This document shows positions 1 through 25,448 of a stretch of 64,000 nt of DNA, piece after piece. The stretch covers positions 62,259 through 126,258 of the forward strand of contig CALLJL010000017.1 in the NCBI GenBank assembly GCA_938092135.1, in the 5' to 3' direction. How positions within the stretch are numbered: position 1 is the stretch's first letter; each line of letters begins with the position of its first letter. The notes beneath the pieces were generated by a model. It was not told where the DNA came from, did no database searches, and worked only from the letters and a program-made list of their open reading frames with translations. The stretch is from an uncultured bacterium (GTDB lineage Bacteria > Acidobacteriota > Aminicenantia > Aminicenantales > CALLJL01). A program made the position numbers and the translations under genes.

Positions 1-86
1 CTTTCCACGGGCTTAGGCAAAAATTTTCTAATGCTCCGGCGGGAGCGGACTAATTCTAAGAATTTAGTTGATAAAAGTTTACTCAT
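1..86 (-). CDS. Nitroreductase-family protein, N-terminal fragment (gene continues off the left edge)
   Basis: Minus-strand ATG at 84-86, preceded by an AGGGAG RBS. It translates MSKLLSTKFLELVRSRRSIRKFLPKPVE, the typical nitroreductase N-terminus (RRSIRKF). The rest lies off-window. Confidence 0.45.
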   Translation of the reverse strand, partial: MSKLLSTKFLELVRSRRSIRKFLPKPVE

Positions 87-301
87 AGTTAACTCCCTCT
101 TCAACTTTATCTAAGTAACTTCCAGTTTTAAATTTAAAAATTTCTTTTGAATTCTAAACTATTTTGTATATTATCTGGGATAATTGTTTCTAAGTAAAAT
201 TAATAAAATAGAACCGCTGCAAGCCCGAATCTTTCGGTTAATTAGAGTTGATAAGACAAAATTATCAGCCAAGGTTTTGCAAGAGCAAAATTTGCGATTA
301 T

Positions 302-838
302 TTACTTTTCTTTTTGTATAGCAAACCAGTAGATAAAAAGCTCCTTTTCTAATTCCTTATAATTTTGGAATTTCCGTTGGATTATTTTCCAGAAATTCTC
401 ATTATGTTTTTTTTCGAGGAGATGAGCTAATTCATGATATATGATGTATTTAATAAGAAAAATGGGCAATTTTTGTATTTTTGTATTTAAGGTAAGATTT
501 TTCTTCGAGCTTATGCTTGCCCATTTTGTTTTCATATTTCTCCAGAAGATTCCATTTATTCTTACGCCTAAATCATCGGATGCATCCTTAATAAGCTTAT
601 TCAAAATTTCATCAATTTCATCTTTCTTCCTTTGATACAATTCCTTTTGGTAAGATTCTTTTAGACATTCATTTATAAAGCCAAGTTTTTTCATTATCCA
701 ATTTTTATACTTTTCGACGATAACTTCAGGAGAGTAGCCAAAAGGAAGGATTAAAAGAAGCTTTCCCGTTGAAAATTCTAGCCTTGGAAATTTTATATTG
801 CGAAAGGAGACTTCGTAAGGTATTTCAGGAAGCTCCAT
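302..838 (-). CDS. DUF45/YgjP-like (M48-related) HExxH metal-dependent hydrolase
   Basis: Contains the motif YIIYHELAHLLEKKHNENFW, matching the DUF45 signature HELxHLxxxNHxxxFW. The gene overlaps the hsdR 3' end by 14 nt, an arrangement often seen downstream of hsdR. Confidence 0.7.
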   Translation of the reverse strand: MELPEIPYEVSFRNIKFPRLEFSTGKLLLILPFGYSPEVIVEKYKNWIMKKLGFINECLKESYQKELYQRKKDEIDEILNKLIKDASDDLGVRINGIFWRNMKTKWASISSKKNLTLNTKIQKLPIFLIKYIIYHELAHLLEKKHNENFWKIIQRKFQNYKELEKELFIYWFAIQKEK

Positions 839-3800
839 AGTTTTTTACGCAGTCCATTAATTTTTCATGTAAAATATCCATTTCTTTCAACGATAATCCA
901 TATGTTTTCTTAATCATTCTTACAAACTTTCTTATCTCTCGTTCTATACTCCTCCTTGCTGTCGTTTGAGCAAGCCATCCAGGAAACATTAATACTCTTA
1001 ATTTTTCCGAAAGCTCCTTTATTTTATCAACAAATTCACCTTTCTTTTCAAGATTTTTCTCGAGCGTCAGAAGGAGAGAATACTCAAGGTCTGAAAAGTT
1101 TAGTGTTTTTTGTCTATGAGAGAGAGAATAGATTTCTTCAAATATTTTTACTCCTTCCTCATATATCTTTTCATAATCCTTTATTTTCTCTTTCCACATT
1201 TTAACAAGTCTTTCGACCTTCTCAACTAGAGTTTCATAAATCGGATTCCTGTGCCTTTCGACAAGAATTAATCTGTTAAGAGTAAAAAGAATATTAGCTG
1301 ACTTCTCTTTTTTATCCTTAATTTTTTCTTCTAATTGTTTAAGATACTGTTCATCAAGAGTAATTGAAGGAAGAGAACTTGAAAGCGTCTCAATCTCAGT
1401 AGATTTGTGAATTGACTCTATTGTTGTCTTATAATATTTCTCAATTTCAGCTTCATAAATTGATTTTTGGATGACCGTTTTCATGTAATAGGTGTAAATA
1501 GCCGAGAGCCATTTAAAGGAATCTAAATACTCAATTTTAACTATGTCTGGACCAAGAAGCTCAAAGAGTTTATTGAGCTTTCTATATTTACCTACAAATT
1601 CTTTTTCAGTAATCGGAGAAGATGTAAGAATATCAATTGCGTCGACCAAAGTTTTCCTCTGATAATCCCTTTTTAAGTCTTTAAATATTTCCAGGCTTTC
1701 CTGAAGCAAGTTCACAAATTCTTGCTGAATATTTTCATAACTAAAAAGGACTCCTTCAATGTCTTCTTTGCTGTAAATTTCAATAGCTCTTTTAAATTCT
1801 TTCAATATTCCAACATAATCTATGACCAGACCAGCTTCTTTTAAATCCCTATAAGGTCTGTTTGTTCTGGCTATTGCCTGAAGCAGTCTATGCTCTTTAA
1901 GAGGCTTATCAAGATATAACACTTGAAGAATCGGAGCATCAAATCCTGTTAAAAGCATATCAGTCACTATCAATATCTTGGGATACTCCTCCTCTTTAAA
2001 TTTTCCAATAATTTCTTTTCTAATAGTTTCAATATCTTTCCCTGCGTATCTTTGTCTTGTCTCTGCCACTGCTTTTAAGAGGCTGGGCTCATCTCTTTCT
2101 CTATAGGTCATTACAACTTCACAATATTCCTTTGGAAGAAGTTTATTCAGCTCAAGGCGATAAAGTTCGCAGGCTTTTCTGCTTCCAGCTACAACCATGG
2201 CTTTGAATCTTCCAACAACATTCTCCTTAAAATGTTTAACTATATCCTCTGAAATAACCTTTATTCTATTAGGATTTTCAAGAAAAGCTTTAATAGAATT
2301 GATTTTTTTTCGCACAGATTCTTCTATTTCTTCCCGCATTTCTTCTGGGATTTCTTCAAACTCCGATTCCAAGAATGCTTCCAGTTGTTCTTTTTTCAGG
2401 TGAACTTCCCTTTCAAGTCTTGGTTGATAGACAATTTTCACGGTAAAGCCATCTTTTATAGATTCCGTTATAAAATATTTATCGAGATAAAGCTCTTCTG
2501 GTGGATAACTAAATTCGAGATAAGTGTCTCTTTCCCTTTTTGAGATGGGAGTTCCAGTGAAGGCAAAAAAGAAAGCATTTCTTAAAATTGACTTCATTTG
2601 AGCTGCAAGGGTTCCATATTGTGTCCTATGCGCTTCATCGACAAAGACAATTACATTATTTCTATTCATAATAGTTTCTTTTGTCCTCGACATCTTTTCT
2701 ATTTCTTTTCCCAAATGATTCAGCTCATTGTATCTAAACTTATGAATCAGAGTTATAAATGCTCCTCTCTTTCCTCTGTAATCATCAGATTTTAAAATCT
2801 CTTTTAATTCTTCAACCGAATTTATTTTTTCAGGTTTTATAATATCAAGGGCATTAAATTCTCCGTCCAGTTGCTCTTCAAGGTCAATCCTATCCACAAT
2901 AAAAAAAACTGTGGGGTTTTGAAGTTCCTTTAAATAATAAAGTTTGTGAAAGGCAAAAATCATTGTAAGAGTTTTCCCACTACCTTGCCAGTGCCATACT
3001 AGCCCTTTATTCTTTTCATCTTCACCAATAACATTTTTCTTCACCCTTTCAACTATTTTGCTTACGGTTCTATATTGCATATATCTTGTGACAACCTTTG
3101 TTGCCTCTCCTCGCTCAATCCTGAAAAAAAGAAAATTCCTAAATATATCCAGAAGTACTTCAGGCAGAAGAAAAGAAGAGAAAATAGAATAGGAAGGATG
3201 AATCTCTTTTCTCTTTATTTTCTCTTCATTATTCTCTGTTCTTAATTCGCCTTCTTCCATTTTCCACTCTTCGGCATTCACCTCATCTTTCCATGGAACA
3301 ACTGGAAAGTACTTGGCCACTGCTTCAACGGCAACACCAATTTGAGCATATTTGAACAATTCAGGAACTTTCTTCTCGTAATCCTTTATTTGTCTGTAAG
3401 CATTGAACCAGCTTTCAGCAACATTTGTCGGGTCTTTGCCTTCAATTATTACAAGAGGTATTCCATTTATATACAAAACTAAATCCGTTCTAATCCTTTC
3501 TCTCCCATCATAAATTGCTTGTCTTGTTATTATAAACTCGTTATTATTAATGTCATTAAAATCAAAGAGCTGAACATATTTTACTACTCTTTCTTTTTCA
3601 AACTTAACGGGGATTCCAAATTTATAAAAATTTAAAATTTTCCTGGCTCCCTCAATGCCAGTGCCGGCAAGGGTCAGTTCATTAATTGCCTTTTTTATCT
3701 CTTCATCACCGATGTTAGCTTCTTTGTTGATTCTTTCAAGGGCTCGCGATAGGTTTGGAATTAGAAGAGGCTCTTTGTAGCTTTCCCTTTCGAGGCTATC

Positions 3801-3878
3801 AGCTGGAATAAAACTCCATCCTTTCTCCTGGAGTAGGCTGGAAATGTAATCTTCAACGATTTTCTTTTCTTTAAACAT
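825..3878 (-). CDS. hsdR: Type I restriction enzyme R subunit (HsdR)
   Basis: 1017 aa. Has a Walker A motif WQGSGKTLTM, a DEAH box VDEAHRTQ and SF2 helicase motifs, and sits with the other Type I R-M genes. Confidence 0.9.
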   Translation of the reverse strand: MFKEKKIVEDYISSLLQEKGWSFIPADSLERESYKEPLLIPNLSRALERINKEANIGDEEIKKAINELTLAGTGIEGARKILNFYKFGIPVKFEKERVVKYVQLFDFNDINNNEFIITRQAIYDGRERIRTDLVLYINGIPLVIIEGKDPTNVAESWFNAYRQIKDYEKKVPELFKYAQIGVAVEAVAKYFPVVPWKDEVNAEEWKMEEGELRTENNEEKIKRKEIHPSYSIFSSFLLPEVLLDIFRNFLFFRIERGEATKVVTRYMQYRTVSKIVERVKKNVIGEDEKNKGLVWHWQGSGKTLTMIFAFHKLYYLKELQNPTVFFIVDRIDLEEQLDGEFNALDIIKPEKINSVEELKEILKSDDYRGKRGAFITLIHKFRYNELNHLGKEIEKMSRTKETIMNRNNVIVFVDEAHRTQYGTLAAQMKSILRNAFFFAFTGTPISKRERDTYLEFSYPPEELYLDKYFITESIKDGFTVKIVYQPRLEREVHLKKEQLEAFLESEFEEIPEEMREEIEESVRKKINSIKAFLENPNRIKVISEDIVKHFKENVVGRFKAMVVAGSRKACELYRLELNKLLPKEYCEVVMTYRERDEPSLLKAVAETRQRYAGKDIETIRKEIIGKFKEEEYPKILIVTDMLLTGFDAPILQVLYLDKPLKEHRLLQAIARTNRPYRDLKEAGLVIDYVGILKEFKRAIEIYSKEDIEGVLFSYENIQQEFVNLLQESLEIFKDLKRDYQRKTLVDAIDILTSSPITEKEFVGKYRKLNKLFELLGPDIVKIEYLDSFKWLSAIYTYYMKTVIQKSIYEAEIEKYYKTTIESIHKSTEIETLSSSLPSITLDEQYLKQLEEKIKDKKEKSANILFTLNRLILVERHRNPIYETLVEKVERLVKMWKEKIKDYEKIYEEGVKIFEEIYSLSHRQKTLNFSDLEYSLLLTLEKNLEKKGEFVDKIKELSEKLRVLMFPGWLAQTTARRSIEREIRKFVRMIKKTYGLSLKEMDILHEKLMDCVKNYGAS

Positions 3879-4018
3879 GATATTTTAGAGCCTGAAAAAT
3901 GAATTTCTCATCAATTCTAGTTTATTAATGACTTAATCTTTTCTACAAAAGGTTTCGCTTTCTCAAGCCATTCTTCAACTTGCTTCTTTTCGAACTCAAC
4001 GAATTCTAAATAACCTCC

Positions 4019-4372
4019 TCACTGTCTTGCTTCAAATAATCTATTATAAAATCGCCCCTCTTCTGTCCCTATAAGACCTTGTTTTATAATGTATCTATGG
4101 AAATAGGCCTTAACACCGGAATGTTTTTTAAATTTTAATCCTTTTTGGAGCAATAATGCACTCACAATATAAAAGCAGGCATAACAAATTCTGTTCACAG
4201 AGAAGGAAAGCCTGTTTGCTTTTAGCTCATCTTCTGCAGAGCAAAGGGATTCTAGGGATCTTTCTACCCAGTATTTAATAATTTCTTTCTTCTTTTTAGC
4301 ACTTTCCTTCACAAGGGAATTCCTTCCTTTTCTATAAAATAATGAATAGGAAGAGGACTTAGTTTTTCCCAC
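4019..4372 (-). CDS. HEPN-domain protein (toxin-like partner of the MNT gene)
   Basis: 117 aa. The C-terminal region (CYACFYIVSALLLQKGLKFKKHSGVKAYFHRY) resembles HEPN (PF05168). The annotated start overlaps the upstream MNT gene by 64 nt, so the true start may be a non-ATG codon further in. Confidence 0.65.
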   Translation of the reverse strand: MGKTKSSSYSLFYRKGRNSLVKESAKKKKEIIKYWVERSLESLCSAEDELKANRLSFSVNRICYACFYIVSALLLQKGLKFKKHSGVKAYFHRYIIKQGLIGTEEGRFYNRLFEARQ

Positions 4373-4677
4373 TCCTTTTTTGATAGAATAAGAGGACTTA
4401 TATTTGTGTCAAATTCAATATTTATATCAAACACTATGTCTAAAATTTGCTTCCTAATCTTTTCATTTATTTCGCCAGATAGAATTATTAAAATATCAAG
4501 ATCAGATTCTTCATCAAACTTACCTGTTACCTTTGATCCAAAAAGTTTGATCTCGGTTCCATGATATAATTTTTCAACCGCAGATTTAAGTTTATAAAGA
4601 GCTTCTTGTTCGAGCTTAGTGAAATACTTCTTAACTCTATTTCTTTGCTTCAAAATACTTTTTCTTTTTATTGTCAT
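4309..4677 (-). CDS. Minimal nucleotidyltransferase (MNT) domain protein
   Basis: Carries the motif LFGSKVTGKFDEESDLDILII, i.e. GS...DxD of PF01909. It is paired with the HEPN gene. Confidence 0.75.
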   Translation of the reverse strand: MTIKRKSILKQRNRVKKYFTKLEQEALYKLKSAVEKLYHGTEIKLFGSKVTGKFDEESDLDILIILSGEINEKIRKQILDIVFDINIEFDTNISPLILSKKEWEKLSPLPIHYFIEKEGIPL

Positions 4678-4706
4678 TGTTTTGATTTTCTTTCATCCAT
4701 TAGGCT

Positions 4707-5975
4707 TCATGTTCCACTTTTATAATCTAATTTTACCCTTCTCCTTCCTGTAAGCAAATCTTCCATTAATCCTTTCTTAACTCTTTCAAGCTTATCTTTC
4801 CTTTTTTCCAGCATCTCCAATCCCTTGTCAATAGTACTCAGGATTTCAGCAATTTTTTGTTGCTCTGGGAGAGGGGGGAGGGGGAGAGGAAACCTTTTGA
4901 GGTCATCTTTTCTAATAGCTTGAAAAGTTGAACCTCCAGAAATACTCTCAAGCTTTTTGCCTTTATACTTTAAATAATAAAATAAAAACATATAATTTGA
5001 TTTATCTGCCTTACTTCTTATTGCCGCTAAACCTCTGCCAATGCAAACCTTTGCAAGAGAAATATTAACATCTCCAACCGGAGCTCTTACCGAAATTAAA
5101 ACGTCGTTTTTTTCTGCTATTTTTATTGGTTTAGAACAGTAAATACTAGGTAATGGATAAATTTCGCCAAATTCCATCTTCCCCTGAAGAAAAGGCAGTC
5201 CTTCATTTGAAGTATTATAGGTGGAGGAAGGAGGCGACTGACCCATTATTACTTCAAAAATTTTATTGTCCCCCAACCTCACCACCTCCCACTCCTTCGG
5301 AATCTTTCCAATCTCTGTGTCTTTAAACTCCTTATGTCCTATGCCTTTGGTAAGTAGCTTCTCCATCAAGCCTTTCTTTAGCCTCTCGGTCTTCTCAATA
5401 GCCAGCTTTACCTTCTCAATTGCCAAATCCACTGTGCTCAGAATTTCAGCAATCTTTTTCTGTTTAGGAAGAGGAGGGAGGATGACCTTAAAATTTTCTA
5501 ACTGATCTTTTGATAATTCTTTAAACGTGCTTCCGCTGCTCAGGTTTTGTAATTCCTTCTTTTTATTTAAGAAATAATAACAATAGAATTTTGGAAAAAT
5601 ATTCTTTTCATCTTTTGGTATTAATCCTTTGCATCCTTGATTAAATGTGGCCCTTTCTTTAAGTATAGCAACATAACCTACTGGAGCCCTGGTTGATATT
5701 ATAATTGAATTTATTGGCATCAAAGTTAAGTTACTCTCTTTCATTGCCTTTTCGGTAATTTTTCTTTCACTTTCTTTTATTTCTATTTGCCTATTTAATT
5801 TGCTTAAATCAGATGGTGTAATCCAATTTATTGTTCCATTTTTCCAATAATCGCTATTTTTAGTTGATGGCGTCGTGCCAGTTTCAACTATAAATAAATC
5901 GTTCACTTTATGAACCTCCCAATCTTCCGGTATCTTCCCTATGTCCGTAACTTTAAAATTATGTTTTTTTTTCAC
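4707..5975 (-). CDS. hsdS: Type I restriction-modification specificity subunit (HsdS), two target-recognition domains (TRDs)
   Basis: 422 aa. Two TRDs are each followed by a conserved repeat ([18 protein letters not shown].. and [18 protein letters not shown]..), the typical HsdS architecture. Confidence 0.85.
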
Positions 5976-5987
5976 TTTATTAATCTT

Positions 5988-6977
5988 TTAGGGGAAAATT
6001 CTTAATTGTTCTTTTTCTAAAATTTCATAATTTTGCGTCATTTTATTCTTAAATTCCCATATATTCTCAAATTTCCATTCACCATTTCTGATGTTCGCTT
6101 TTGAGATTGTAAAGGCCTTGAAATGTTTTGAATATTTAAAATTTTTCCCTCTTTTAAATTTTTCTAACATTAATTTTACAGGATATGAAATTATAGCCTT
6201 TTTGTCCTCTACCCTATCACCTACACGTGGATTTTTTTGATAATAGAGTTTTGTTTCTTTGAAACAAGATTGAACCACACTTCCAAGCAGCATGTCTGCT
6301 AATTGAAGAATATTAGCGTGTTTATATTCTTCAGAACACCTAACATATTTTTTATGATCAGAATTTAAATGAACTAATTCTGCTGTATCTGGGATTTCTA
6401 CATAAGAACGAACTTTTTTTCTTAGATCATAAATTATTCTAAATTCATTTAATTTTCGATGACAAGGCTGACCGTCTGTTATTATCTTTAAAATTTTTAC
6501 CTTGTGTTTATTGTCATAAAGATAATGAAGCGTGCCCTTTAATAGCATTCTTAGTAGAGTTTCCCCAAATCTCAATTCTTTTTCCTTCCTATTTTCTCCC
6601 CCATAACTCGATATCAGATCCAATTTTGGTTCCTCATAAAATATCACTCCTAATTTGCAAAAAGTATTTTTTTGTTTAAGATATTCTACCGCTATTTGAA
6701 CTATATTTTTTTCAGCATTATTTTGCTTAGTCCACTTCTGTCCTGAAATCTCAGAAAAATGAAATTTGTGATTTGCACCGAAATTATTTCTTACTTTCTC
6801 AATGTCATCAAAAAGATCAGTTAAAGGCTTGAATGTTATTGGTGGCATGCTTAATAAATTTCCTTTTTCTCTGATGGTGATTTTAACAGGAACCAAAAAT
6901 AATACATGTCCTTTTAAATTCTGATATTTTGTTTCATCGTGATATACGATAACTTCACTATAGGTTTCTTTGTTCAT
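5988..6977 (-). CDS. DUF3800-like protein embedded in the R-M operon
   Basis: 329 aa. The N-terminal VIVYHDETKY resembles the YIDESG start of DUF3800, and the internal ILQLADMLLG resembles its QLAD motif. The assignment is tentative. Confidence 0.4.
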   Translation of the reverse strand: MNKETYSEVIVYHDETKYQNLKGHVLFLVPVKITIREKGNLLSMPPITFKPLTDLFDDIEKVRNNFGANHKFHFSEISGQKWTKQNNAEKNIVQIAVEYLKQKNTFCKLGVIFYEEPKLDLISSYGGENRKEKELRFGETLLRMLLKGTLHYLYDNKHKVKILKIITDGQPCHRKLNEFRIIYDLRKKVRSYVEIPDTAELVHLNSDHKKYVRCSEEYKHANILQLADMLLGSVVQSCFKETKLYYQKNPRVGDRVEDKKAIISYPVKLMLEKFKRGKNFKYSKHFKAFTISKANIRNGEWKFENIWEFKNKMTQNYEILEKEQLRIFP

Positions 6978-7002
6978 ATTTCTACTTCCTCTTCAGGCAC
7001 AT

Positions 7003-7296
7003 TCAAGTCTTTCTCCTTGCTCTCTTTATAATGTCGCCCTTAGAATTTATTACTCCTATTCCTGTTCCTTTAGTTACAGCCAGAGCAGTGCGAAGATTTT
7101 TATCATTGGTAGCTATATATCTTGCTTTTGAGGATCTTTTTACCTGATTTATGCCATGATATATCCCACTTTTTGTAGTCTCTACTTCGATAGCTCTATT
7201 GGGTGTCACAATATCAATCCCTCTGTGCTTTTTATACTGGACACCCAGCTTCTTCGCTATGTTTTCAGCAATTTGGTCATGTCTACTCTTGCTCAT
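7003..7296 (-). CDS. Small hypothetical protein, possibly PD-(D/E)xK-like (YraN/Hjc-like core)
   Basis: 97 aa. The stretch RGIDIVTPNRAIEVETTKSG resembles the GEIDLI...VEVK core of YraN-type nucleases. This is weak. Confidence 0.3.
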   Translation of the reverse strand: MSKSRHDQIAENIAKKLGVQYKKHRGIDIVTPNRAIEVETTKSGIYHGINQVKRSSKARYIATNDKNLRTALAVTKGTGIGVINSKGDIIKRARRKT

Positions 7297-7343
7297 GTGT
7301 TCATCATCACCTCCTTTCTATTTCCCAAAAATTAATTAGCATT

Positions 7344-7571
7344 TTATCTTTCTTCCAATTCTTCTAAATATTCCTCAATCTTTTTGTCCACATCTTCAAG
7401 TTCCTTTTCAATTAACTTAATTTCTTCCCACTCTCTCTCCACATCAATTTCTTCCCTTTCCTCCTCTGGAAATACATAAAGAGTTACATTAAGGTTGTAA
7501 TCGTTTTCTCTTATCTTTTCAGCGTCAACAATTTTGGAGAAGCCCTCTATTTCTTTAAATTCGTGATACAC
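7344..7571 (-). pseudogene. hsdM: C-terminal tail of HsdM, in frame with the upstream hsdM ORF across a TAG codon
   Basis: Translates YHEFKEIEGFSKIVDAEKIRENDYNLNVTLYV, the conserved HsdM C-terminus (ENDYNLNxxRYV). Exactly 66 nt (22 sense codons) separate it from the TAG at 7638-7640. Confidence 0.7.
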
Positions 7572-7637
7572 CTTTGAAATCTTATTTATGTGTTCATCTG
7601 CGAGCCTATTTAATTTTCTAACTTCTGGATGTTGCTC

Positions 7638-9092
7638 CTATTCTTGGCTTGCATTTATAAATAGAATCTTTCCTTTCCTTCCTTCTGGTTTGCTCTTTCT
7701 GAGAATTAAAATTGCACCAGGAGCCCCAGTATTGTAGAAAAGCTTTTCCGGAAGCAAAATAACAGCTTCTATCAAATCTTTATTAAGAATTCCTGCTCTT
7801 ATTGCTCTTTCTCTTCCACCTCTAAAAAGACATCCATTGTCGATAACAACTCCTACCCGGCCATTCTTCTCATCTGCGGAAGATAGCATGTGCTGAATCC
7901 AGGCCCAATCCGCTGACTGATTAGGAGGAAATCCATATTTAAATCTTTCCTTCCAAAATTCTCCTTTTTTCAGAGTTTCCTCTCCATATCCATCCTGATT
8001 CCAGGGAGGATTGGCTATAACAATATCAAATTCCATTATTCGGTCAGCAGATTTAAACTTAGGATAAAACAAAGTATCCCCAAGAGAAAGGTGGACATTT
8101 CTTATATCATGTATGAAAAAATTCATTTCTGCTAAAGCAAGGGTCATATGATTTGCCTCCTGCCCGTAGAGGAAAAGTTTGTTGGCTTCATCCTTTCCAT
8201 GCTTCTCCTCTACATGTTTGTAAGCACCAATGAGCATACCGCCAGAACCCATTGCTAGGTCATAAACTTTCTCATTGGGTTTCGGGTCAAGAATTTTAAC
8301 AAGAAGCTTTATATCTTCCCGAGGAGTATAAACCTCGCCCTCTTTGGCCTTCTGAGGAGCAAAATATCTCAAAATCCATTCGTAGGCATCGCCAAGAAGG
8401 TCAGCAGAGACATGATGAAGGGGTTTAGCGCTAAAGAGCTCCACAAGCTGGCGCAATATTTCTGCATTTTCTCGGCTCACTGCGAATTGAATAAAGTCCA
8501 CATTTTCAAATACATCTTTAAGGTCAGGATTTCTTTCAGCAAGAATTTTCATAGCCTTAGAGAAATTCTCTGGTAACCTTGCAGGGTCTCTTCTTATATT
8601 TTCCCAGAGAAGTTCTGGTTCAATATCAAAATCATGATATAAAGATTTGCTGGCTTCTTCTCGCGCCTCTTCCTCAGATAGTCCATCAGAAATTGCTTCG
8701 TTGTATGCGGATTCAAACTCAATCTCCCATTTGTCACTTATTCTTTTGTAGAAAAGAAGAAAGAGAATGAAAGTATAATCAACCCTGGTTCTTATAAGAT
8801 CGGCAGCTCTTTTCAAAAGAGCTTCAAGCTCGCCTCTTGTAAGTTCACTTTCACCAATGGCAAGGAATTGCGATATTATTTTTTCACTCCTTTCAAGGGT
8901 ATATATCCTTTTTCTCGCATCCTCAGGGTCAAATTCAGCTCTGAGCCACCCTTTCTTTCTTAATTCAGAAAGAATTACATTCATCTGTTCTTCGCTGTCT
9001 TCAAAATCTCTTTTGAGGACATTAAAGGCATCTTCAAATCTAAAAGGAGAATCTTCATATTCTGTCCATAATGCCATGTACCTTTTCTCCAA
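7638..9092 (-). CDS. hsdM: Type I R-M DNA methyltransferase subunit (HsdM), truncated by an in-frame TAG
   Basis: 484 aa. Has the N6-adenine methyltransferase motifs DLAMGSGGML (motif I) and VIANPPW (motif IV). It ends ...ILFINASQE and then hits TAG. Confidence 0.85.
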   Translation of the reverse strand: MEKRYMALWTEYEDSPFRFEDAFNVLKRDFEDSEEQMNVILSELRKKGWLRAEFDPEDARKRIYTLERSEKIISQFLAIGESELTRGELEALLKRAADLIRTRVDYTFILFLLFYKRISDKWEIEFESAYNEAISDGLSEEEAREEASKSLYHDFDIEPELLWENIRRDPARLPENFSKAMKILAERNPDLKDVFENVDFIQFAVSRENAEILRQLVELFSAKPLHHVSADLLGDAYEWILRYFAPQKAKEGEVYTPREDIKLLVKILDPKPNEKVYDLAMGSGGMLIGAYKHVEEKHGKDEANKLFLYGQEANHMTLALAEMNFFIHDIRNVHLSLGDTLFYPKFKSADRIMEFDIVIANPPWNQDGYGEETLKKGEFWKERFKYGFPPNQSADWAWIQHMLSSADEKNGRVGVVIDNGCLFRGGRERAIRAGILNKDLIEAVILLPEKLFYNTGAPGAILILRKSKPEGRKGKILFINASQE

Positions 9093-9936
9093 CCATTTAG
9101 GAAGATATAAGTTTTTAGATTGTCTATTATTAAATAAGTTTTTTTATTCATACTTATTCAATGAATAGTATTAAGCTATTTGTCATGCCCAAGACGATAA
9201 TTTTTTTAATTATTATTAAGTTAGATTCCGAGGTAAAAATGTCAGAAATCTATCCCTCAGGCAGGCCGGAGGCTTAATTGCTACTTTCAGGCTTCTTATC
9301 TCATCTGCCCATAGAGATTTATTACATCTTTGTCTGTTCTTAGACAAAAACGGCAGTTTGAATATCTGCCCATAGGCTTTCTTGCGAATCCTTTTAGGCT
9401 TAAAGACTTGCCGAGAGTAAAATTTATGCTTGCTGAGGCATTAGAGAGCTACAACGTCACAAACTAACAATAAAGGTCTTTTTTTGTTCTAAAAAGGCAA
9501 TGGCATATTTTGTTTGCCAATTCGCCATCATAAATCCTCTATAGGTAACTGCTTCGACCGAAACTCCTTCACGCTCTCATTTTAGCGCTTCACCATAGCC
9601 AAGACCTGTGAAGCTACGCCTCTTTTTTCCCTAACGCCCTCCTAACTACTCTATTCTCCTAGGAAAAGCACCTTAATCAAATACTCCTGAACCAAACTAA
9701 TCAGCGCCACCTCAAAGTGATTCCTTTCCATTTCTTTATGCCAACGTAAAGTAACCTCTTTTATTTCGAGATTTTCTTCTTAAAAAGAGAGTTTTCGATG
9801 GCTCCCTTCCCATGATCAAATTGCAAACTATTTTGTCCACGGCAACTTTAAAGCATTTTGTATACCAGCTTTTTAAATAGCAAATAATTATTGCCACAGG
9901 CATCTGATTTAATTATTATAGGCATGTTTTTTCTCC

Positions 9937-10422
9937 TTGAGGAGGACTGAGCTTATGGAAAAAAGGATTATCACTTTTTGTTTGATTTTCTTTGGGATAA
10001 TATCGTCTCTTCCAGTTTCAGCCGAGAATTACGGCATAGGATTCATTTTTGTCGATCCTACTGGTCTGAGCGCTAAAATGTGGTTTGGCCACCGACAGTC
10101 TCTGGCTGGAGCGATTGGCTGGGCGAGTGAGAAAAACAATCCTCTTCTTATCCAAATCGATTATCTCCCCCCGTCTCTTCACCTTTTAAGCGACGTGAAT
10201 CTTAAAGTGAACTTTTACTATGGCCTCGGCGGACGTCTCGTTTTTAATGGCGAGGCCGAAGGAGGCTTTCGCTTTCCCCTTGGTTTTGACTTTCTTGCCC
10301 AGAAAGCTCCTCTGAATTTTTTCTTTGAAATAGTTCCAGTTTTCTTGTTTTCTCCTGAAGCTAAGCTTACTCTGAAGGGAGCTATTGGGATTAGGTATAT
10401 CTTCAGTCATCTAGGTCAATGA
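9937..10422 (+). CDS. Secreted/outer-membrane beta-barrel-like small protein
   Basis: Has a signal peptide and ends in aromatic residues (..IRYIF). The likely true start is the ATG at 9955, which has a GGAGGA RBS. Confidence 0.45.
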   Translation: MRRTELMEKRIITFCLIFFGIISSLPVSAENYGIGFIFVDPTGLSAKMWFGHRQSLAGAIGWASEKNNPLLIQIDYLPPSLHLLSDVNLKVNFYYGLGGRLVFNGEAEGGFRFPLGFDFLAQKAPLNFFFEIVPVFLFSPEAKLTLKGAIGIRYIFSHLGQ

Positions 10423-10529
10423 CCTTAATTTATTAATTTAAAAATTAGCTAAAAAATGTAAACAAGGCTAAATTCTTAATGAAAACTAAAATGGGTTTAT
10501 CCCCGTAAAAATAAAAGAAAGGAGATTAA

Positions 10530-11537
10530 ATGAATCTACGAAAAATTTTTGGCGTAGCTTGTATCGCCCTTCTCTTTCTTTTCCCTTTATCCTGTGCCCG
10601 GAGAGCCAAAGCCCCTCAAGCTGGCCGGGCTAAGGCAATGGATTTAATCCAGCTTCTCCCTAAAAATTGTTTTGGGATTTTTGCCTGGGATGTTCGGCGA
10701 ACCATGGACACTTCTTTAGCCCGCCATTCCCTCGAGGACAAGGAAGTAAAAACCAAAATTGAGGAAATCAAGAATCAAATCGGAATTGACCTAACTAAGG
10801 ATGTCTTTCTAATTGCTGGCGGTATAATGAGTGCGGAAGGAAAGGAGCAGCAGCCTGCAGCCATTATCAATTTGCGCTATAATCAAGATAAAATTTTAAA
10901 TTTCATCAAAGAAAAGATTCCTCAAGCCCTTGATGAAATTGTTTACGAGAAAAAAACCATTTTTAAAATAGCTTCTGAGAAAGAGCCCCCGACAGCCTTC
11001 ACCTTTTACAATGAATCGAATATTTTTGTCGGCACCATTGAAGGCATTGAGAAAATTATCGATGTTTGTGTCGGCAAAGCTGAAAGTATCCGCATGAACG
11101 ATGAATTTAATTCTCTGCTTAAAAAAACCAAAACCGAATCTTTAAGCTGGAGTGCTTTCCTTCTACCGCCTGAAGCCATGGCTGAATTAGCTAAAAGTAA
11201 TGTTATGCTCAGTTCCCTTGAGAAATTACAATCCCTAGCTATATCTTTTGATTACAAGAATAAAAATCTTGTTGCTGAAATTACGGCCAGGGGAAGCGAT
11301 GAAACCCATCATAAGCAATTAGCGGAATTCCTATCCGGGATGAGAAGTATGGGCGTAATGATGGCCAATAAATATCCTGAAGTGGTCGATGTCCTGAACA
11401 GGCTAGAAATAACGTCAACCCCCCAACAGGTAAGTCTCAGTTTTACTTTACCTGAGGACCTTCTGATTAAACTGAGTGATCGAATGAAAAAGGAAGTGGA
11501 GGCTAATTTACCTCGCCTTATGGAAAGAAACTTCTAA
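10530..11537 (+). CDS. Lipoprotein, function unknown
   Basis: Signal peptide with a lipobox (FPLSC). Confidence 0.5.
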   Translation: MNLRKIFGVACIALLFLFPLSCARRAKAPQAGRAKAMDLIQLLPKNCFGIFAWDVRRTMDTSLARHSLEDKEVKTKIEEIKNQIGIDLTKDVFLIAGGIMSAEGKEQQPAAIINLRYNQDKILNFIKEKIPQALDEIVYEKKTIFKIASEKEPPTAFTFYNESNIFVGTIEGIEKIIDVCVGKAESIRMNDEFNSLLKKTKTESLSWSAFLLPPEAMAELAKSNVMLSSLEKLQSLAISFDYKNKNLVAEITARGSDETHHKQLAEFLSGMRSMGVMMANKYPEVVDVLNRLEITSTPQQVSLSFTLPEDLLIKLSDRMKKEVEANLPRLMERNF

Positions 11538-12364
11538 TCCTCAGCTTTCGGTTCCTTAAACTCAAAAAGAAGGCAGGCGAGAGAAAGGAAAAAGAGGCTT
11601 ATGCCCAAAAGAACAAGAATAGCGTATAAAGGTTTAGTTGGCTCCAGCTGAAAGGTTAGGAAGGAAAAGCGTCCTGAGGAAGGAAGAGGAATAATTGATT
11701 TTATATAGTGAATAATCGCCAGACGCTGAGTCGAACCAGGGAAATACTGAATCACATTTTCCCAGCCGAAACTGAAAATAAGTCCAAAGAAGACGGAGCG
11801 ACGCATGGCTGCGCCCAGAAAGGCAAAGAAAGCAGTATAAGCCAAAAGGCCAAGGCCTAAAACCCCGATGTCCCTAATCAAAAAGCCATAAAGGGAAGTT
11901 TTAGACAAGCTTTCTAAATTCAAAATAACAAAAGAAACAACGAGTCCAGTTGCAATAAAAATACCCGCAAGAACGAGGGTGGATAAATATTTGCCAACAA
12001 CAATAGCGGGTCGCGGCACCGGCCTTGTCACTAAATAAGCCCAGGTGCCGGCTTCGAGATCCTCAGTACAAATAGAAGTGCCATAAAAGAGAGTTAAGAC
12101 TAAAATTAAAAATTGAAAAACAAAAAGAAGGACAGCATTGTTGAAGAAATACAGGCCGTCAAAACTGGTATCAGGGGATAATGTCTGGTGAATTCTTAAT
12201 GAAAGGGCAATAAAAATTGGTGAAAAACAGAGCAGAGCAAAAAGACGGCTTTTCTTGCTTCTCTTTCCCTGAAATAGTGAAAGCTGAAAAACAATTTTAG
12301 TTCCAGTCCAAAAAAGTGAACCCTTCTTTTCTCGCTCTCCTTGCTGAATCATTGCTCCGCTCAT
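11534..12364 (-). CDS. ABC-2 type transporter permease
   Basis: Multi-transmembrane protein whose start overlaps the upstream ATPase gene as ATGA. Confidence 0.55.
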   Translation of the reverse strand: MSGAMIQQGEREKKGSLFWTGTKIVFQLSLFQGKRSKKSRLFALLCFSPIFIALSLRIHQTLSPDTSFDGLYFFNNAVLLFVFQFLILVLTLFYGTSICTEDLEAGTWAYLVTRPVPRPAIVVGKYLSTLVLAGIFIATGLVVSFVILNLESLSKTSLYGFLIRDIGVLGLGLLAYTAFFAFLGAAMRRSVFFGLIFSFGWENVIQYFPGSTQRLAIIHYIKSIIPLPSSGRFSFLTFQLEPTKPLYAILVLLGISLFFLSLACLLFEFKEPKAED

Positions 12365-13290
12365 GCTTTTCCTATTAAATAATCAAAGACAGCCTGAAGA
12401 TTATCGTCAGGCGAAGTAATTTCTTCAATTGATATCTCGCCTTTGGCCACCAATTGGAGAAGAAATTCAAAAAATTTATCTCGGTCTCGGGTTTCAACGA
12501 GAAGGTCCTCATCATTTTCCCCAAAATAGGCCTTGACCACATAGGATTTCTGGATAAGAAAGGCGGCCAGCCGCCTCGAATCGACCGTTTTAATGGAAAC
12601 GACATGGGGATGGCGTTCAATTAAATCGCGAATCTCATGGATTTCTCCTTGAGCGAAAACTTTACCTTGATGAATGAGAATAATCTGCTTTGTGAGAGCC
12701 TCGATCTCAGGCAAAATGTGGCTCGAAACAATGACCAATCGACCCTCGCGGCCAAAGTCACGGATTAATCGGATCATCTTTCTTTTACCCAGCGGATCCA
12801 ACCCATTAAGCGGTTCATCGAGAATAAGTATTTCAGGGTCATGAGCAAGGGCTTGAGCTAATTTCAATCTCTGGCGCATTCCTCGGCTATAACTTCTTAT
12901 TGGTCGATCAGCATCAGCCTCGAGCTCAACAAGAATGAGCATTTCCTTTGCCTTTTCAGCTGCCTCTTTCTCGGAAAAATGATGAAGTCTGAGCATCCAG
13001 TAAAGAAATTCTCGGCCAGTAAAGCCCTCAAAAAAAGCATCCTGCTCGGGACAATAACCGAGCCGATAAAATAAATCAGCCCTTCCTCTCACCGGCCGAC
13101 CATCTATGGTAACCAACCCGAGGCTTGGTCTTATCTGGCCTGTAATTAATTTAAGGAGAGTTGACTTGCCGGCTCCGTTGGGACCTAAAAGCCCAGTGAT
13201 TCCAGGACCAATCTCAAGATTGACATCACTTAAGCCCAAGACATTGCCATACCAGCGAGAAAGATTCTTGGTCACAATCAGCGGCTTCAT
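12361..13290 (-). CDS. ABC transporter ATP-binding protein
   Basis: Walker A GPNGAGKST, the ABC signature LSGGMRQRL-like (YSRGMRQRLKLA), and Walker B ILILDEP. Confidence 0.85.
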   Translation of the reverse strand: MKPLIVTKNLSRWYGNVLGLSDVNLEIGPGITGLLGPNGAGKSTLLKLITGQIRPSLGLVTIDGRPVRGRADLFYRLGYCPEQDAFFEGFTGREFLYWMLRLHHFSEKEAAEKAKEMLILVELEADADRPIRSYSRGMRQRLKLAQALAHDPEILILDEPLNGLDPLGKRKMIRLIRDFGREGRLVIVSSHILPEIEALTKQIILIHQGKVFAQGEIHEIRDLIERHPHVVSIKTVDSRRLAAFLIQKSYVVKAYFGENDEDLLVETRDRDKFFEFLLQLVAKGEISIEEITSPDDNLQAVFDYLIGKA

Positions 13291-14159
13291 CGAATAACCT
13301 CAACGGCCTTGATCTTGCGAATTATGAAATAGCCGGCCAAAAAACAAAAAAGGCCTAGGGTAAGTAATGACCAAAACCAGGGAATTGGTTGCACCGGCTT
13401 AACTCTAAAGGCAAAAGAGGCTACCTGTTGTAGATTAAATTTAATCGAAAGGAGAGAAAGGAAAGGTCGGCGAAACCAGTTATAGAGAAAAGCATAGAGA
13501 AAATCGGAAAAAAAATAAACGGCAAAAACGATTACCGATACATATCTGGAATTGCGGCTAAGGCAGGAAAGAAAAAGGGTATAGAGGCAGAAGAATAAAG
13601 TTAAAAAAAGACTATAGCCTATGATTGATAGGGGAAGCCAGGGATAACTTCTAAGAAGGCTGAAATTGCCGGCAAAAAGCATCTTGATTAAAATAAAAAT
13701 AATTGCCGGAAAAATGGTCAATGTGAGAACAAAAAAAGCGACGACCGCTGCTTTTCCCACGAGATAATCCTTCTTTTTTAAAGGACGGCTAAAATAAAGA
13801 GGCAGAGCATTAAAACGAAAATCATCGGCTATTAAGCCGGCACCAGCAAAGACCATTATGAGGATTAACATAAAGAGGAGAAAATCGCTGGCGAGATAAC
13901 TTTTAAAAAAATTGGGATTAACCTCAAACAAAACCAGTCGGCCACCTCGCGTCATAAACTTAAAATCTTCAATTCTTTCTGAAATATATATAGCCACAAT
14001 AAAGAAAAAGGCAGGTAAAAAGGAAAGAGCAAAGACAGGTCGAAAATATTTTCGGCGGAATGCCAGTTTAAGATTAAGCCTAGTTATAGGCCACCAGGGC
14101 CAACGCCTTTCAATGAACTGACCATTCCAATGACTATATCCATGTTCTCTTATCATCAA
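13287..14159 (-). CDS. ABC transporter permease (membrane protein)
   Basis: Multi-transmembrane, translationally coupled to the genes on either side. Confidence 0.5.
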   Translation of the reverse strand: MMIREHGYSHWNGQFIERRWPWWPITRLNLKLAFRRKYFRPVFALSFLPAFFFIVAIYISERIEDFKFMTRGGRLVLFEVNPNFFKSYLASDFLLFMLILIMVFAGAGLIADDFRFNALPLYFSRPLKKKDYLVGKAAVVAFFVLTLTIFPAIIFILIKMLFAGNFSLLRSYPWLPLSIIGYSLFLTLFFCLYTLFLSCLSRNSRYVSVIVFAVYFFSDFLYAFLYNWFRRPFLSLLSIKFNLQQVASFAFRVKPVQPIPWFWSLLTLGLFCFLAGYFIIRKIKAVEVIR

Positions 14160-15067
14160 TCAACTCCCACAGCTCGGGCAAAAAAATCTTCCAAGCTATA
14201 TTGGCTCGGCTTAAAATGCCTGATTTGAATACCGGCTTTCAGGGCAGCCACAAATATTTCTTTTGAGTCGACCTCAGAAGGAAGATAAAGCCTGATCAAA
14301 CCGTCCTCAGTTATCTCAGCCCGACAGCCAAGAGGCCTAAGTTCCTCCAACCATTTCTCTTTCTCGCCTTTAATCTTAATTTCGTATAAACGAAAATTCA
14401 TTGTTTTTAATTCTTTTATTTTCCCCTGAGCCACCACCTTTCCCCGATTAAGAATAACCACATTTTCACAGACAGTTTCGATATCAGACAGGATATGAGA
14501 GGAGAGCAAGATTTGAATGCCCTTTCCATTAGCCAAATCCTTGATTAGCTCCAAAACCTCGACCCTTCCCTGGGGATCAAGATTACTGGTCGGCTCATCA
14601 AGGAAAAGAAGCTTCGGGTCGTGGACTAAAGCCTGAGCCAGTTTAAGTCGTTGCCTCATGCCGGCAGAATAGGTTTCGAGAAGTCGATAACGGGCCTCAC
14701 CTAAGCCGACATAAAATAGAACTTCATGGGCCCTTTTCATAGCTTCCTGGCGGGGCATACCGGCTAATTCGCCAAAAAAGGCCGTAAAGGTAACAGCATC
14801 CATGCCAGGAAGAAAGCAATCATCCTCAGGCATATAGCCAATAAATTGACGAATTTTTTTCTGCTCAGAAAGAATATCATAACCGAGAATCTGTCCATAA
14901 CCTTTTTCGGGTCTGAGAAAGCCAAGCAGAATTTTTATTAGAGTGGTTTTGCCAGCTCCATTGGGGCCAAGGAGACCAATTGCCCCACCTTCAAGAGACA
15001 AGCTAACATCATCGAGGGCCTTAATTGGCCCATAGCTAAAACTAATATGGTGAACCTCAAGGCTCAA
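14156..15067 (-). CDS. ABC transporter ATP-binding protein
   Basis: Walker A GPNGAGKTT, signature YSAGMRQRLKLA, Walker B LLFLDEP. Confidence 0.85.
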   Translation of the reverse strand: MSLEVHHISFSYGPIKALDDVSLSLEGGAIGLLGPNGAGKTTLIKILLGFLRPEKGYGQILGYDILSEQKKIRQFIGYMPEDDCFLPGMDAVTFTAFFGELAGMPRQEAMKRAHEVLFYVGLGEARYRLLETYSAGMRQRLKLAQALVHDPKLLFLDEPTSNLDPQGRVEVLELIKDLANGKGIQILLSSHILSDIETVCENVVILNRGKVVAQGKIKELKTMNFRLYEIKIKGEKEKWLEELRPLGCRAEITEDGLIRLYLPSEVDSKEIFVAALKAGIQIRHFKPSQYSLEDFFARAVGVD

Positions 15068-15152
15068 CTCTTATCCTTTCCTCTTTTTACAAAATCTTCA
15101 TAACTAAATTTAAAAAAATTGTTATCATAAAGGGGAAACAGGTTGCAACTGC

Positions 15153-16832: not shown

Positions 16833-16946
16833 TTTTTATTTCCTAGTTCCTTTCAATTTTTCTTGAAATAATTATTATAATCAAATCATTTTTTTGGCCA
16901 AAATTTAAAGTAGCCTTTCTAATCTGTTTAGGATTAAAATAATTAT

Positions 16947-17297: not shown

Positions 17298-17396
17298 TTT
17301 TTTCTTATTCTAGTCTTTTTTCTTTCCTATTTTTTAGGCATAAATTTTTTTAAAATGATTAAATCCTTCGAAAATATTTATGTCTTGAGAAAAAAT

Positions 17397-21104: not shown

Positions 21105-21291
21105 TTTTATATTCCTAATTTTTCCCTTTCAACACTTCTAAAATTTTTACTTTCATTTTCTCCCTGTTTTTCTTTTCTTCTGGCTATTTTTTTATTCTTT
21201 TTAATCCCTTCCTCTTTCTTCCTTCTACAAAAAGCTTCCAGGCTCATCTTTCCTTATTTAATCGTCAATCTCTTCCTTTTTTTAATCTCCA

Positions 21292-25428: not shown

Positions 25429-25448
25429 AAACGACAAAAATACTGAAA

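What the first reader, a model, noticed from the sequence alone, without database searches (positions are those of the whole stretch)
7569..7640. hsdM interrupted by a single in-frame TAG; the downstream ORF is the conserved HsdM C-terminus
The 484-aa HsdM ORF ends ...FINASQE-TAG. Then 22 sense codons (EQHPEVRKLNRLADEHINKISK) and the 75-aa ORF (YHEFKEIEGFSKIV...ENDYNLNVTLYV) continue in the same frame, reconstituting a full-length HsdM. TAG is a genuine stop elsewhere in the window, for example the gene at 18501. This is therefore a nonsense mutation or sequencing error, a phase-variable OFF state, or programmed read-through. It would inactivate the R-M system while leaving hsdR intact.
Basis: seen in the sequence. 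Interest (0 to 1): 0.6.

Follow-up and report, generated by a model that had tools for sequence, protein, structure and literature searches.

The report
Broken, decaying hsdM restriction-modification gene
The methylase gene of a type I restriction-modification system in an uncultivated Aminicenantes bacterium really is cut short by a TAG stop codon, but it is an ordinary decaying pseudogene in a partly degraded defence island, not a recoding or switching device.

Summary
hsdM lies on the minus strand. An in-frame TAG at window 7640..7638 is followed by 97 sense codons that encode the conserved HsdM C-terminus.

TAG is a normal stop in this window: five other genes end with it. All 201 orthologues examined have a sense codon at this position, mostly Tyr (TAT or TAC). 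The nearest relative has TAT, so the change is a single T>G.

The TAG also appears in a separate assembly of the same organism (Logan, run ERR9287632). That assembly differs from the window at 3 of about 22,600 bases, so a chance consensus error is unlikely.

The gene shows further decay:
- A 1-nt deletion puts the sister-type ATG start out of frame.
- There are 10 lineage-specific substitutions at columns at least 95% conserved, against 0-1 in sister alleles. One of them, K311M, is polymorphic between the two assemblies.

No repeat tract, invertible hsdS, downstream RNA structure or suppressor tRNA was found.

The neighbouring HEPN toxin gene also carries an in-frame stop (TGA, 4021..4019).

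By homology with EcoKI and PacII, losing the C-terminal tail stops HsdM binding HsdS, which should abolish both methylation and restriction.

Verdict: a known kind of event, of low interest.

The parts
7638..7640 (-). In-frame TAG, codon 480 counted from the ATG at 9077. Orthologues have Tyr or Phe here.
   Evidence: In 120 homologous proteins the column is Y 92, F 21, H 4, S 3. In 81 orthologous loci the codon is TAT 39, TAC 16, TTT 13, TTC 11, CAT 1, TCT 1. The closest relative, L001, has TAT.
7641..9077 (-). hsdM upstream part, 479 codons from ATG 9077 (alternative TTG at 9092). It holds an N-terminal extension, HsdM_N, and the catalytic N6_Mtase domain with NPPW.
   Evidence: Pfam HsdM_N E 5e-15 and N6_Mtase E 1e-90. 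The identical 479-aa product is on record as P0243 (NCBI/ENA).
7347..7637 (-). 97 sense codons in the same frame: the HsdM C-terminal region, including the C-terminal helical tail. The natural stop TAA is at 7346..7344.
   Evidence: Pfam N6_Mtase profile 255-310/311, E 1.2e-14. It aligns to residues about 404-497 of PacII M (7vru_B).
9139..9151 (-). Sister-type start codon ATG (9151..9149) followed by an A7 run (9145..9139) that lacks one base relative to both sister alleles. The ATG is now out of frame and opens only a 56-aa ORF (9151..8981).
   Evidence: DNA alignment A3; ORF list; coordinates checked. All other homologues start M[IVL]PKW[IVL]EKRY, which the window cannot encode from any start codon.
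8145..8147 (-). Codon 311 is ATG (Met) in the window and AAG (Lys) in the Logan assembly of the same organism. Lys is invariant in 120 of 120 homologues.
8256..8258 (-). Codon 274 is CTA (Leu) where 120 of 120 homologues have Pro, in the SAM-binding motif I 'YDPxxGxGG'. It is one of 10 window-specific changes at columns at least 95% conserved. The others are codons 163, 196, 199, 225, 255, 311, 337, 462 and 493.
7003..7296 (-). 97-aa ORF of unknown function (p97), first gene after hsdM.
   Evidence: No hit in Pfam, NCBIfam, PADLOC, PHROGs or PDB. Orthologues at 66-72% identity lie directly downstream of hsdM in related loci.
5988..6977 (-). 329-aa ORF of unknown function (p329), with sub-threshold similarity to DUF3800.
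   Evidence: Pfam DUF3800 E 0.31 only. It follows p97 in L093, L106 and L109 and also occurs in L131. There is no PDB hit.
4707..5975 (-). hsdS, 422 aa, with two target-recognition domains; the ORF is intact.
   Evidence: Pfam Methylase_S E 1e-76, two stretches.
4309..4677 (-). MNT-type nucleotidyltransferase (antitoxin-like), intact.
   Evidence: Pfam NTP_transf_2; PADLOC PDC-S09.
3917..4372 (-). HEPN gene interrupted by an in-frame TGA at 4021..4019. 33 further sense codons (4018..3920) run to TAG at 3919..3917. The motif EARQRADY of the sister reads EARQ*GGY here.
   Evidence: The Pfam HEPN match grows from profile 2-84 (43.9 bits) to 2-116/117 (64.6 bits) when the stop is read as X.
825..3878 (-). 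hsdR, 1017 aa, intact ORF.
   Evidence: Pfam HSDR_N, SWI2_SNF2, ResIII and T1R_D3-like. The identical protein P0121 is on record in NCBI, ENA and Logan. The relative-rate test against sister P0122 is symmetrical.
302..838 (-). YgjP-like metallopeptidase gene overlapping the end of hsdR.
   Evidence: Pfam YgjP-like E 2e-27. The same arrangement occurs in related loci.

Best explanation
A real point mutation (TAT/TAC Tyr to TAG, one transversion) truncates HsdM 97 residues before its end, in a type I restriction-modification island of an uncultivated Aminicenantes bacterium. The gene is a pseudogene that has been drifting for some time. It has also lost the reading-frame link to its sister-type start codon through a 1-nt deletion. 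It has collected substitutions at otherwise invariant residues as well. The truncated protein keeps the catalytic domain but lacks the C-terminal tail. In solved type I enzymes that tail packs against the HsdS coiled coil. So (inferred) no M2S core forms, and the cell has neither methylation nor restriction from this system. HsdR alone is harmless, so the loss costs nothing. The neighbouring HEPN toxin gene is broken in the same way, so the island as a whole is partly degraded. Shown: the lesions, their presence in two assemblies, and the excess of changes at conserved sites. Inferred: loss of assembly and of activity.
For: The frame and the conserved downstream part are confirmed. The stop replaces Tyr/Phe in 120 proteins and 81 DNA loci, none of which has an internal stop. 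The nearest allele has TAT. TAG, TAA and TGA all serve as ordinary stops in the window. The same organism was assembled separately in Logan run ERR9287632. There the gene is called as 479 aa plus 75 aa with the same TAG, while the two assemblies differ at 3 of 22,646 compared bases. In the relative-rate test, the window has 10 unique changes at columns at least 95% conserved, against 0-1 in sisters P0001 and P0242 (binomial p 0.002-0.012). Overall branch lengths are equal at 17 versus 15 (Fisher p 0.003). K311M, at an invariant Lys, is polymorphic between the two assemblies. A 1-nt deletion behind the sister-type ATG is shown. A second in-frame stop lies in HEPN, in the same island. These are the only two such cases among 65 likely genes in 64 kb. 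Removing about 43 C-terminal residues of EcoKI HsdM stops it binding M1S1 (PMC2647291). Deleting the C-terminal tails of PacII M1/M2, the closest solved relatives (7VRU), abolishes M1M2S assembly (PMC9613975). Disrupted hsdM genes are documented in other bacteria (bioRxiv 10.1101/2022.09.01.506293).
Against: No reads were available, so allele frequency at the TAG is unknown. The two assemblies may derive from the same read set. The 97 codons after the stop carry no further stop or indel. Their dN/dS against the nearest relative (0.08) is still low, so the nonsense mutation cannot be very old relative to the split from the sisters. The excess of derived changes in the downstream part alone (6 vs 2) is not significant (p 0.25). 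hsdR shows no acceleration (8 vs 10), which is odd if the whole system had been useless for as long as hsdM seems to have drifted. Two new in-frame start codons exist just downstream of the frameshift: TTG 9092 and ATG 9077, where the sisters have CTG and CAA. The 5' lesion may therefore have been compensated rather than disabling.
Confidence: 0.85

Rival explanations
1. The TAG is a base-calling or assembly error, and the gene is intact in the cell.
For: It is a single-base difference from a sense codon. The downstream 97 codons are clean. The source is a metagenome-assembled contig, and the reads could not be inspected.
Against: The same TAG is in a separately built assembly that differs elsewhere by 3 SNPs. 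The gene also carries a 5' 1-nt deletion and 10 substitutions at near-invariant sites, 9 of them shared by both assemblies. The rest of the window shows no broken genes apart from HEPN in the same island.
Confidence: 0.04
2. The stop is read through, either at a low natural level, by a suppressor tRNA or by pyrrolysine, so some full-length HsdM is made and the system still works, perhaps at a tuned-down level.
For: The downstream frame is open and still conserved (dN/dS 0.08). hsdR and hsdS are intact, and hsdR evolves at the normal rate. The rest of the genome, where a suppressor or pyl genes could lie, was not available.
Against: TAG ends five other genes with short or nonsensical extensions. 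There is no tRNA and no Rfam element in the window. There is no downstream structure (z 0.05). The stop is not conserved in any of 201 orthologues. The gene shows relaxed rather than maintained constraint, including changes in motif I and at an invariant Lys.
Confidence: 0.03
3. The stop is the OFF state of a phase-variable type I system.
For: Type I systems with switching hsdM or hsdS are known (PMC7383803, listed). A short C/G-rich run sits in hsdS at 4867-4889.
Against: A point substitution is not a reversible high-frequency switch. There is no simple-sequence repeat in or before hsdM beyond an A7 run that arose by deletion of a T. There is no second hsdS, no inverted repeats and no recombinase in the locus.
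Confidence: 0.01
4. The TAG allele is real, but the population also holds an intact allele, or the genome holds a second compatible hsdM. In that case hsdS and hsdR of this locus would still be used.
For: hsdR shows no relaxed constraint while hsdM does. Strain-level polymorphism exists in the locus. Subunit exchange within a type I family is established knowledge (PMC2647291).
Against: No intact allele closer than 89.6% identity exists among the 5.8 billion protein clusters searched. The 90% cluster holds only the two truncated forms and two sisters. There is no second hsdM in the 64-kb window.
Confidence: 0.1

Closest known systems
Type I R-M methyltransferase subunit HsdM; the closest solved relatives are PacII M1/M2 (PDB 7VRU/7VS4), then the 3LKD HsdM and EcoR124I HsdM (7BST)
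   Same: It has the HsdM_N and N6_Mtase domains, the NPPW motif and a C-terminal helical tail. It sits in an operon with hsdS and hsdR. It is 70-89% identical to a very large family of 585-601-aa HsdM proteins from sediment and subsurface metagenomes.
   Different: It is interrupted by TAG at codon 480. The sister-type start is out of frame. Motif I Pro is replaced by Leu and an invariant Lys by Met.
Naturally disrupted type I systems, such as the fragmented XfaIII hsdM in Xylella fastidiosa M12 and the universally mutated XfaIV (bioRxiv 10.1101/2022.09.01.506293)
   Same: An hsdM gene is broken by a premature stop or frameshift while hsdS and hsdR stay in place. The expected phenotype is loss of both restriction and modification.
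   Different: This case is in an uncultivated Aminicenantes lineage known only from metagenome assemblies. No methylome confirms the loss.
C-terminal truncations of HsdM made in vitro (EcoKI minus about 43 residues; PacII M1/M2 tail deletions)
   Same: The part removed by the TAG includes the region homologous to the deleted tails.
   Different: The natural truncation is larger, at 97 residues. It also removes the conserved segment between the last strand of the catalytic domain and the tail.
Phase-variable type I systems (repeat tracts in hsdM/hsdS, invertible hsdS)
   Same: Only the outcome is shared: an OFF hsdM.
   Different: There is no repeat tract, no invertible hsdS and no recombinase.

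Membership tests
Type I R-M HsdM (functional member) | HsdM_N plus N6_Mtase domains with the catalytic NPPW motif | tested here: met
   Pfam E 5e-15 and 1e-90; NPPW is present in the translation.
Type I R-M HsdM (functional member) | Operon partners hsdS and hsdR | tested here: met
   hsdS at 4707-5975 and hsdR at 825-3878, on the same strand.
Type I R-M HsdM (functional member) | Uninterrupted reading frame through the C-terminal tail that binds HsdS | tested here: not met
   TAG at codon 480. The tail is needed for assembly in EcoKI and PacII.
Type I R-M HsdM (functional member) | Methylation of a bipartite target in vivo | not testable with these tools
   No methylome or read-level data were available.
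Pseudogene (decaying gene) | A disabling lesion absent from orthologues | tested here: met
   0 of 81 loci and 0 of 120 proteins have a stop at this column. There is also a 5' 1-nt deletion relative to the sisters.
Pseudogene (decaying gene) | Relaxed purifying selection on the lineage | tested here: met
   10 versus 0-1 derived changes at columns at least 95% conserved, with equal total branch lengths. The test on the post-stop segment alone is inconclusive.
Pseudogene (decaying gene) | The lesion reproducible outside one assembly | tested here: met
   The Logan ERR9287632 contig carries the same TAG and differs by SNPs elsewhere. Independence of the underlying reads is not known.
Phase-variable type I R-M system | Simple-sequence repeat tract in the coding region or promoter of hsdM/hsdS | tested here: not met
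   TRF finds only 2-3-copy low-score arrays and none at the stop.
Phase-variable type I R-M system | Multiple hsdS copies with inverted repeats and a recombinase | tested here: not met
   There is one hsdS and no significant inverted repeats or recombinase in 1-10500.
Programmed stop-codon read-through or TAG recoding | The stop conserved at the same position in orthologues | tested here: not met
   All orthologues have a sense codon there.
Programmed stop-codon read-through or TAG recoding | TAG not used as a terminator, or rarely so, elsewhere; or a cognate tRNA(CUA)/pyl genes present | tested here: not met
   Five other genes end in TAG. There is no tRNA in the window. The rest of the genome could not be searched.
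Programmed stop-codon read-through or TAG recoding | A stimulatory RNA structure or context after the stop | tested here: not met
   MFE -13.2 kcal/mol against a shuffle mean of -13.35, z 0.05.

The most novel reading that the evidence does not exclude
The TAG is tolerated because a genome-encoded suppressor or natural read-through supplies a trickle of full-length HsdM. That would keep hsdS and hsdR, which are intact and normally constrained, in use at a reduced, self-limiting level. This would be a point-mutation 'dimmer' for a type I system.
Probability: 0.02. Interest if true: 0.5.

Novelty: already known. Interest (0 to 1): 0.08.

Why it matters
It matters little beyond annotation. The locus should be labelled as an inactive type I R-M system (hsdM pseudogene and HEPN pseudogene), so it should not be counted as active defence or used to predict a methylation motif for this Aminicenantes lineage. 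It adds one more example of the rapid decay and turnover of defence islands. The one slightly odd point is that hsdM shows relaxed constraint while hsdR does not. That could be settled with the complete genome and reads.

Tried and rejected
1. I scanned genome contigs and metagenome contigs for an exact 35-nt pattern around the TAG, with N at the third codon base, to find TAG/TAY variants. Neither collection had a match.

2. An exact look-up of the 329-aa neighbour and of the window's 479-aa product found nothing. The organism was then found through hsdR, p97 and PNPase.

3. dN/dS of the post-stop segment against the nearest relative (0.08, against 0.048 upstream) is uninformative, because dS is about 1 and the comparison spans the whole divergence.

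4. Counting deviations from consensus against the distribution of all homologues (14 against a mean of 3.5) proved confounded by clade divergence when the same test was run on HsdR (27 for the window, 29 for its sister). I replaced it with the sister-based relative-rate test.

5. A small local HsdR set of 8 sequences had no power.

6. Re-initiation giving a separate C-terminal fragment is unlikely. The only in-frame start after the stop is the GTG at 7571, which has no upstream Shine-Dalgarno-like sequence (read). No split HsdM with this break point is known to me.

7. The two unknown cargo proteins were searched against Pfam, NCBIfam, PADLOC, PHROGs and PDB without a significant hit.

8. Rfam and tRNA scans of the whole window were empty.
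Full report
OBSERVATION

Translating window 9152..7341 (minus) gives an HsdM sequence that reads ...GKILFINASQE, then TAG (7640..7638), then EQHPEVRKLNRLADEHINKISK VYHEFKEIEGFSKIVDAEKIRENDYNLNVTLYV...EELEER. It ends at TAA 7346..7344.

The ORF list shows the 484-aa ORF (TTG 9092; 479 aa from ATG 9077) and the 75-aa ORF (GTG 7571) in the same frame. Pfam N6_Mtase covers profile positions 2-249 before the stop (E 1e-90) and 255-310 of 311 after it (E 1.2e-14). One domain is therefore cut in two.

GENETIC CODE

The window uses the standard code. Of 55 long ORFs, 26 end in TAA, 23 in TGA and 6 in TAG. Reading through the other five TAG codons would add only 2-9 residues before another stop. In one case it would add 74 residues of nonsense overlapping a convergent gene. 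No tRNA gene and no Rfam family is detected anywhere in the 64 kb.

ORGANISM AND LOCUS

The window is a chromosomal stretch of a diderm anaerobe. It carries genes for PNPase, LpxB, KdtA, Lnt, ProRS and pyruvate:ferredoxin oxidoreductase. The PNPase is 86-88% identical to those of Candidatus Aminicenantes MAGs.

The R-M island runs on the minus strand in this order:
- hsdM
- a 97-aa unknown gene
- a 329-aa unknown gene
- hsdS (422 aa)
- MNT
- HEPN
- hsdR (1017 aa)
- a YgjP-like peptidase gene

WHAT STOOD AT THE STOP

The fused protein, with X at the stop, finds about 3000 relatives. The best 120 are all 585-601 aa and 70-89% identical. At the stop column they have Tyr 92, Phe 21, His 4 and Ser 3.

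In 81 orthologous DNA loci the codon is TAT 39, TAC 16, TTT 13, TTC 11, CAT 1 and TCT 1. None of these genes has an internal stop. The nearest allele is 89% identical in protein and 84% in DNA, and it has TAT. One T>G (or C>G) transversion therefore explains the TAG.

IS IT AN ERROR?

The same organism is present in an independently built assembly, the Logan assembly of run ERR9287632.
- Contig _31722 equals window 1..4875 exactly.
- The stretches of contig _20927 that were fetched cover window 6378-18332 and 21257-27428.
- In that contig hsdM is called as 479 aa plus 75 aa, and the sequence reads ...GAATAGGAG... as in the window.

The two assemblies differ at 3 of 22,646 compared bases, so they are not copies of one consensus. 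A cluster look-up shows the truncated product in two forms. P0243 (NCBI and ENA, on a 183,707-bp contig) is the window allele. P0241 (Logan) is the other.

No intact allele closer than the 89-90% sisters exists in the collection. I could not inspect reads, and the two assemblies may share reads.

SIGNS OF DECAY BEYOND THE STOP

(a) One of the two mismatches in the hsdM stretch falls in hsdM codon 311. The window has ATG (Met) and Logan has AAG (Lys). Lys is invariant in 120 of 120 homologues.

(b) I ran a relative-rate test with two intact sister alleles, P0001 and P0242, and 119 outgroups. The sisters are 98.8% identical to each other and 89.5% to the window.
- At columns at least 95% conserved, the window has 10 private derived changes against 0-1 on the sister path (binomial p 0.002-0.012).
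- At columns at least 50% conserved the counts are 17 against 15.
- The branches are thus equally long, but the window's changes fall disproportionately on constrained sites (Fisher p 0.003).
- The changes include P274L in the SAM-binding motif 'YDPxxGxGG' and V255D next to 'YTPR'.

(c) At the 5' end both sisters read ATGAATAAAAATAACTT, while the window reads ATGAATAAAAAAACTT. The missing base puts the sister-type ATG (9151..9149) out of frame, so that it opens only a 56-aa ORF. All other homologues begin M[IVL]PKW[IVL]EKRY. The window can start only at TTG 9092 or ATG 9077, where the sisters have CTG and CAA, and so loses the conserved PKW. These two new start codons may be a past compensation. 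I therefore count the frameshift as a second lesion, but not as proof of inactivation on its own.

(d) The post-stop segment alone is uninformative. Its dN/dS is 0.08 against 0.048 upstream, at a saturated dS. It has 6 derived changes against 2 in the sister (p 0.25).

CONTROL: hsdR

The same test on HsdR, against sister P0122 (81% identity), is symmetrical at every threshold: 8 vs 10, 32 vs 27 and 57 vs 47. The decay signal is thus specific to hsdM.

This is mildly puzzling if the whole system has been useless for as long as hsdM has drifted. Possible reasons are low numbers, different histories of the two genes (89% versus 81% to their sisters), or a second compatible M subunit elsewhere in the genome. 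I could not test these.

A SECOND BROKEN GENE IN THE ISLAND

The HEPN gene has an in-frame TGA at 4021..4019. The sister reads FEARQRADYIEF where the window reads FEARQ*GGYLEF. After the stop, 33 sense codons continue to TAG 3919..3917. With the stop read as X, the Pfam HEPN match extends from profile 2-84 (43.9 bits) to 2-116 of 117 (64.6 bits).

I scanned 65 likely genes for same-frame extensions of at least 25 codons that do not overlap another gene. The scan returns only hsdM, HEPN and one ordinary adjacent gene at the window's end. The lesions are therefore concentrated in the defence island rather than spread over a poor assembly.

ALTERNATIVES

Phase variation:
- Tandem Repeats Finder shows no repeat tract in or before hsdM.
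- There is one hsdS, and there are no inverted repeats or recombinase.

Read-through:
- The context is GAA TAG GAG.
- The 120 nt after the stop fold no better than shuffles (z 0.05).
- The stop is unique to this lineage.
- The gene shows relaxed, not maintained, constraint.

Re-initiation:
- The only in-frame start after the stop is GTG 7571, which has no Shine-Dalgarno-like sequence before it (read).

CONSEQUENCE (INFERRED)

The closest solved relatives are PacII M1/M2 (7VRU/7VS4, E 5e-76), and the alignment runs to the end of the chain. In PacII the C-terminal tails of the M subunits form a four-helix bundle with the HsdS coiled coil, and deleting them abolishes M1M2S assembly (PMC9613975). 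Removing about 43 C-terminal residues of EcoKI HsdM leaves a folded protein that cannot bind M1S1 (PMC2647291).

The TAG removes 97 residues, including this tail. Type I restriction needs the M2S core, so the expected phenotype is r- m-, with HsdR harmless on its own. The same reasoning is used for the disrupted Xylella systems.

COMPARISON AND NOVELTY

Broken hsdM genes with hsdS and hsdR left in place are documented, for example XfaIII in X. fastidiosa M12 and the universally mutated XfaIV. This case is the same kind of event in an uncultivated lineage. Nothing about it is new in kind.

The sister allele sits at another chromosomal site, next to rpsM-rpsK-rpsD-rpoA-rplQ, with different cargo genes. 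DNA homology with the window covers only 9185..7294, which is the hsdM cassette. This fits a mobile, fast-turnover defence locus.

VERDICT

Interest is low.

The most interesting things seen lie outside the finding: a circularly permuted iPGM at 15153-16832 and a conserved unknown two-gene cargo between hsdM and hsdS. Both are listed under things noticed in passing.

Noticed in passing
window 15153-16832 (minus): The cofactor-independent phosphoglycerate mutase gene (559 aa) is circularly permuted. Residues 17-312 align to residues 220-510 of PDB 1EJJ, and residues 330-544 align to residues 4-217 of 4MY4. The old termini are joined by a linker of about 25 residues. The motifs I recall as catalytic (LILDGWG, GNSEAGH, NVDVIGH, TADHG) are all present in the translation. 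There is no remnant half-copy nearby. The identical protein is in the Logan assembly. About a dozen of the best 150 50%-identity cluster representatives are collinear with the permuted order, for example P0246 (58% identity, 537 aa), so it is a natural family and not an artefact. No paper in the held library links circular permutation with iPGM.
   Followed up: partly
window 3917-4372 (minus): The HEPN gene of the MNT-HEPN pair has an in-frame TGA (4021..4019) inside the conserved EARQRADY motif, which here reads EARQ*GGY. 33 more in-frame codons follow. This is a second pseudogene in the same island.
   Followed up: yes
window 5988-7296 (minus); L093 4501-5753, L106, L109, L131, L145, L105: A gene pair of unknown function lies directly downstream of hsdM, and copies of it recur in related type I loci. 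The first gene is 97 aa, with conserved HDQ...GIDIV...IEVETTK that is reminiscent of a small PD-(D/E)XK nuclease. The second is 329 aa, with YHDET and HFSEISG motifs and a sub-threshold DUF3800 match (E 0.31). There is no significant hit in Pfam, NCBIfam, PADLOC, PHROGs or PDB.
   Followed up: partly
window 8146, 6749 and one site in 21257-27428: The window and the Logan ERR9287632 assembly of the same organism differ at three bases in 22.6 kb. Two are in the R-M island: hsdM K311M and p329 I77V. This points to strain-level polymorphism.
   Followed up: yes
window 4867-4889 (hsdS): A G/C-rich run (AGGGGGGAGGGGGAG on the plus strand) encodes the PLPLPPLP stretch at the start of the terminal conserved region of HsdS. 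The Logan contig _31722 ends inside it, at 4875. The sister contig L165 appears to start a short way upstream of its MNT gene, about where hsdS would end (not verified). Poly-C tracts at the equivalent place cause frameshifts in Xylella XfaII hsdS.
   Followed up: no
L166 / L167 (sister locus), 7019-8824: The intact sister hsdM (601 aa) lies next to the rpsM-rpsK-rpsD-rpoA-rplQ operon. It is followed by different cargo: an SDH-family protease, ORF6N and an AbiJ-like gene. DNA homology with the window is limited to the hsdM cassette (window 9185..7294). The cassette has therefore moved or been exchanged between islands.
   Followed up: partly
window 9152-9936: An AT-rich stretch of about 800 nt (36% GC) upstream of hsdM holds no ORF of 60 aa or more, no tRNA and no Rfam match. 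It may be the edge of the island.
   Followed up: no
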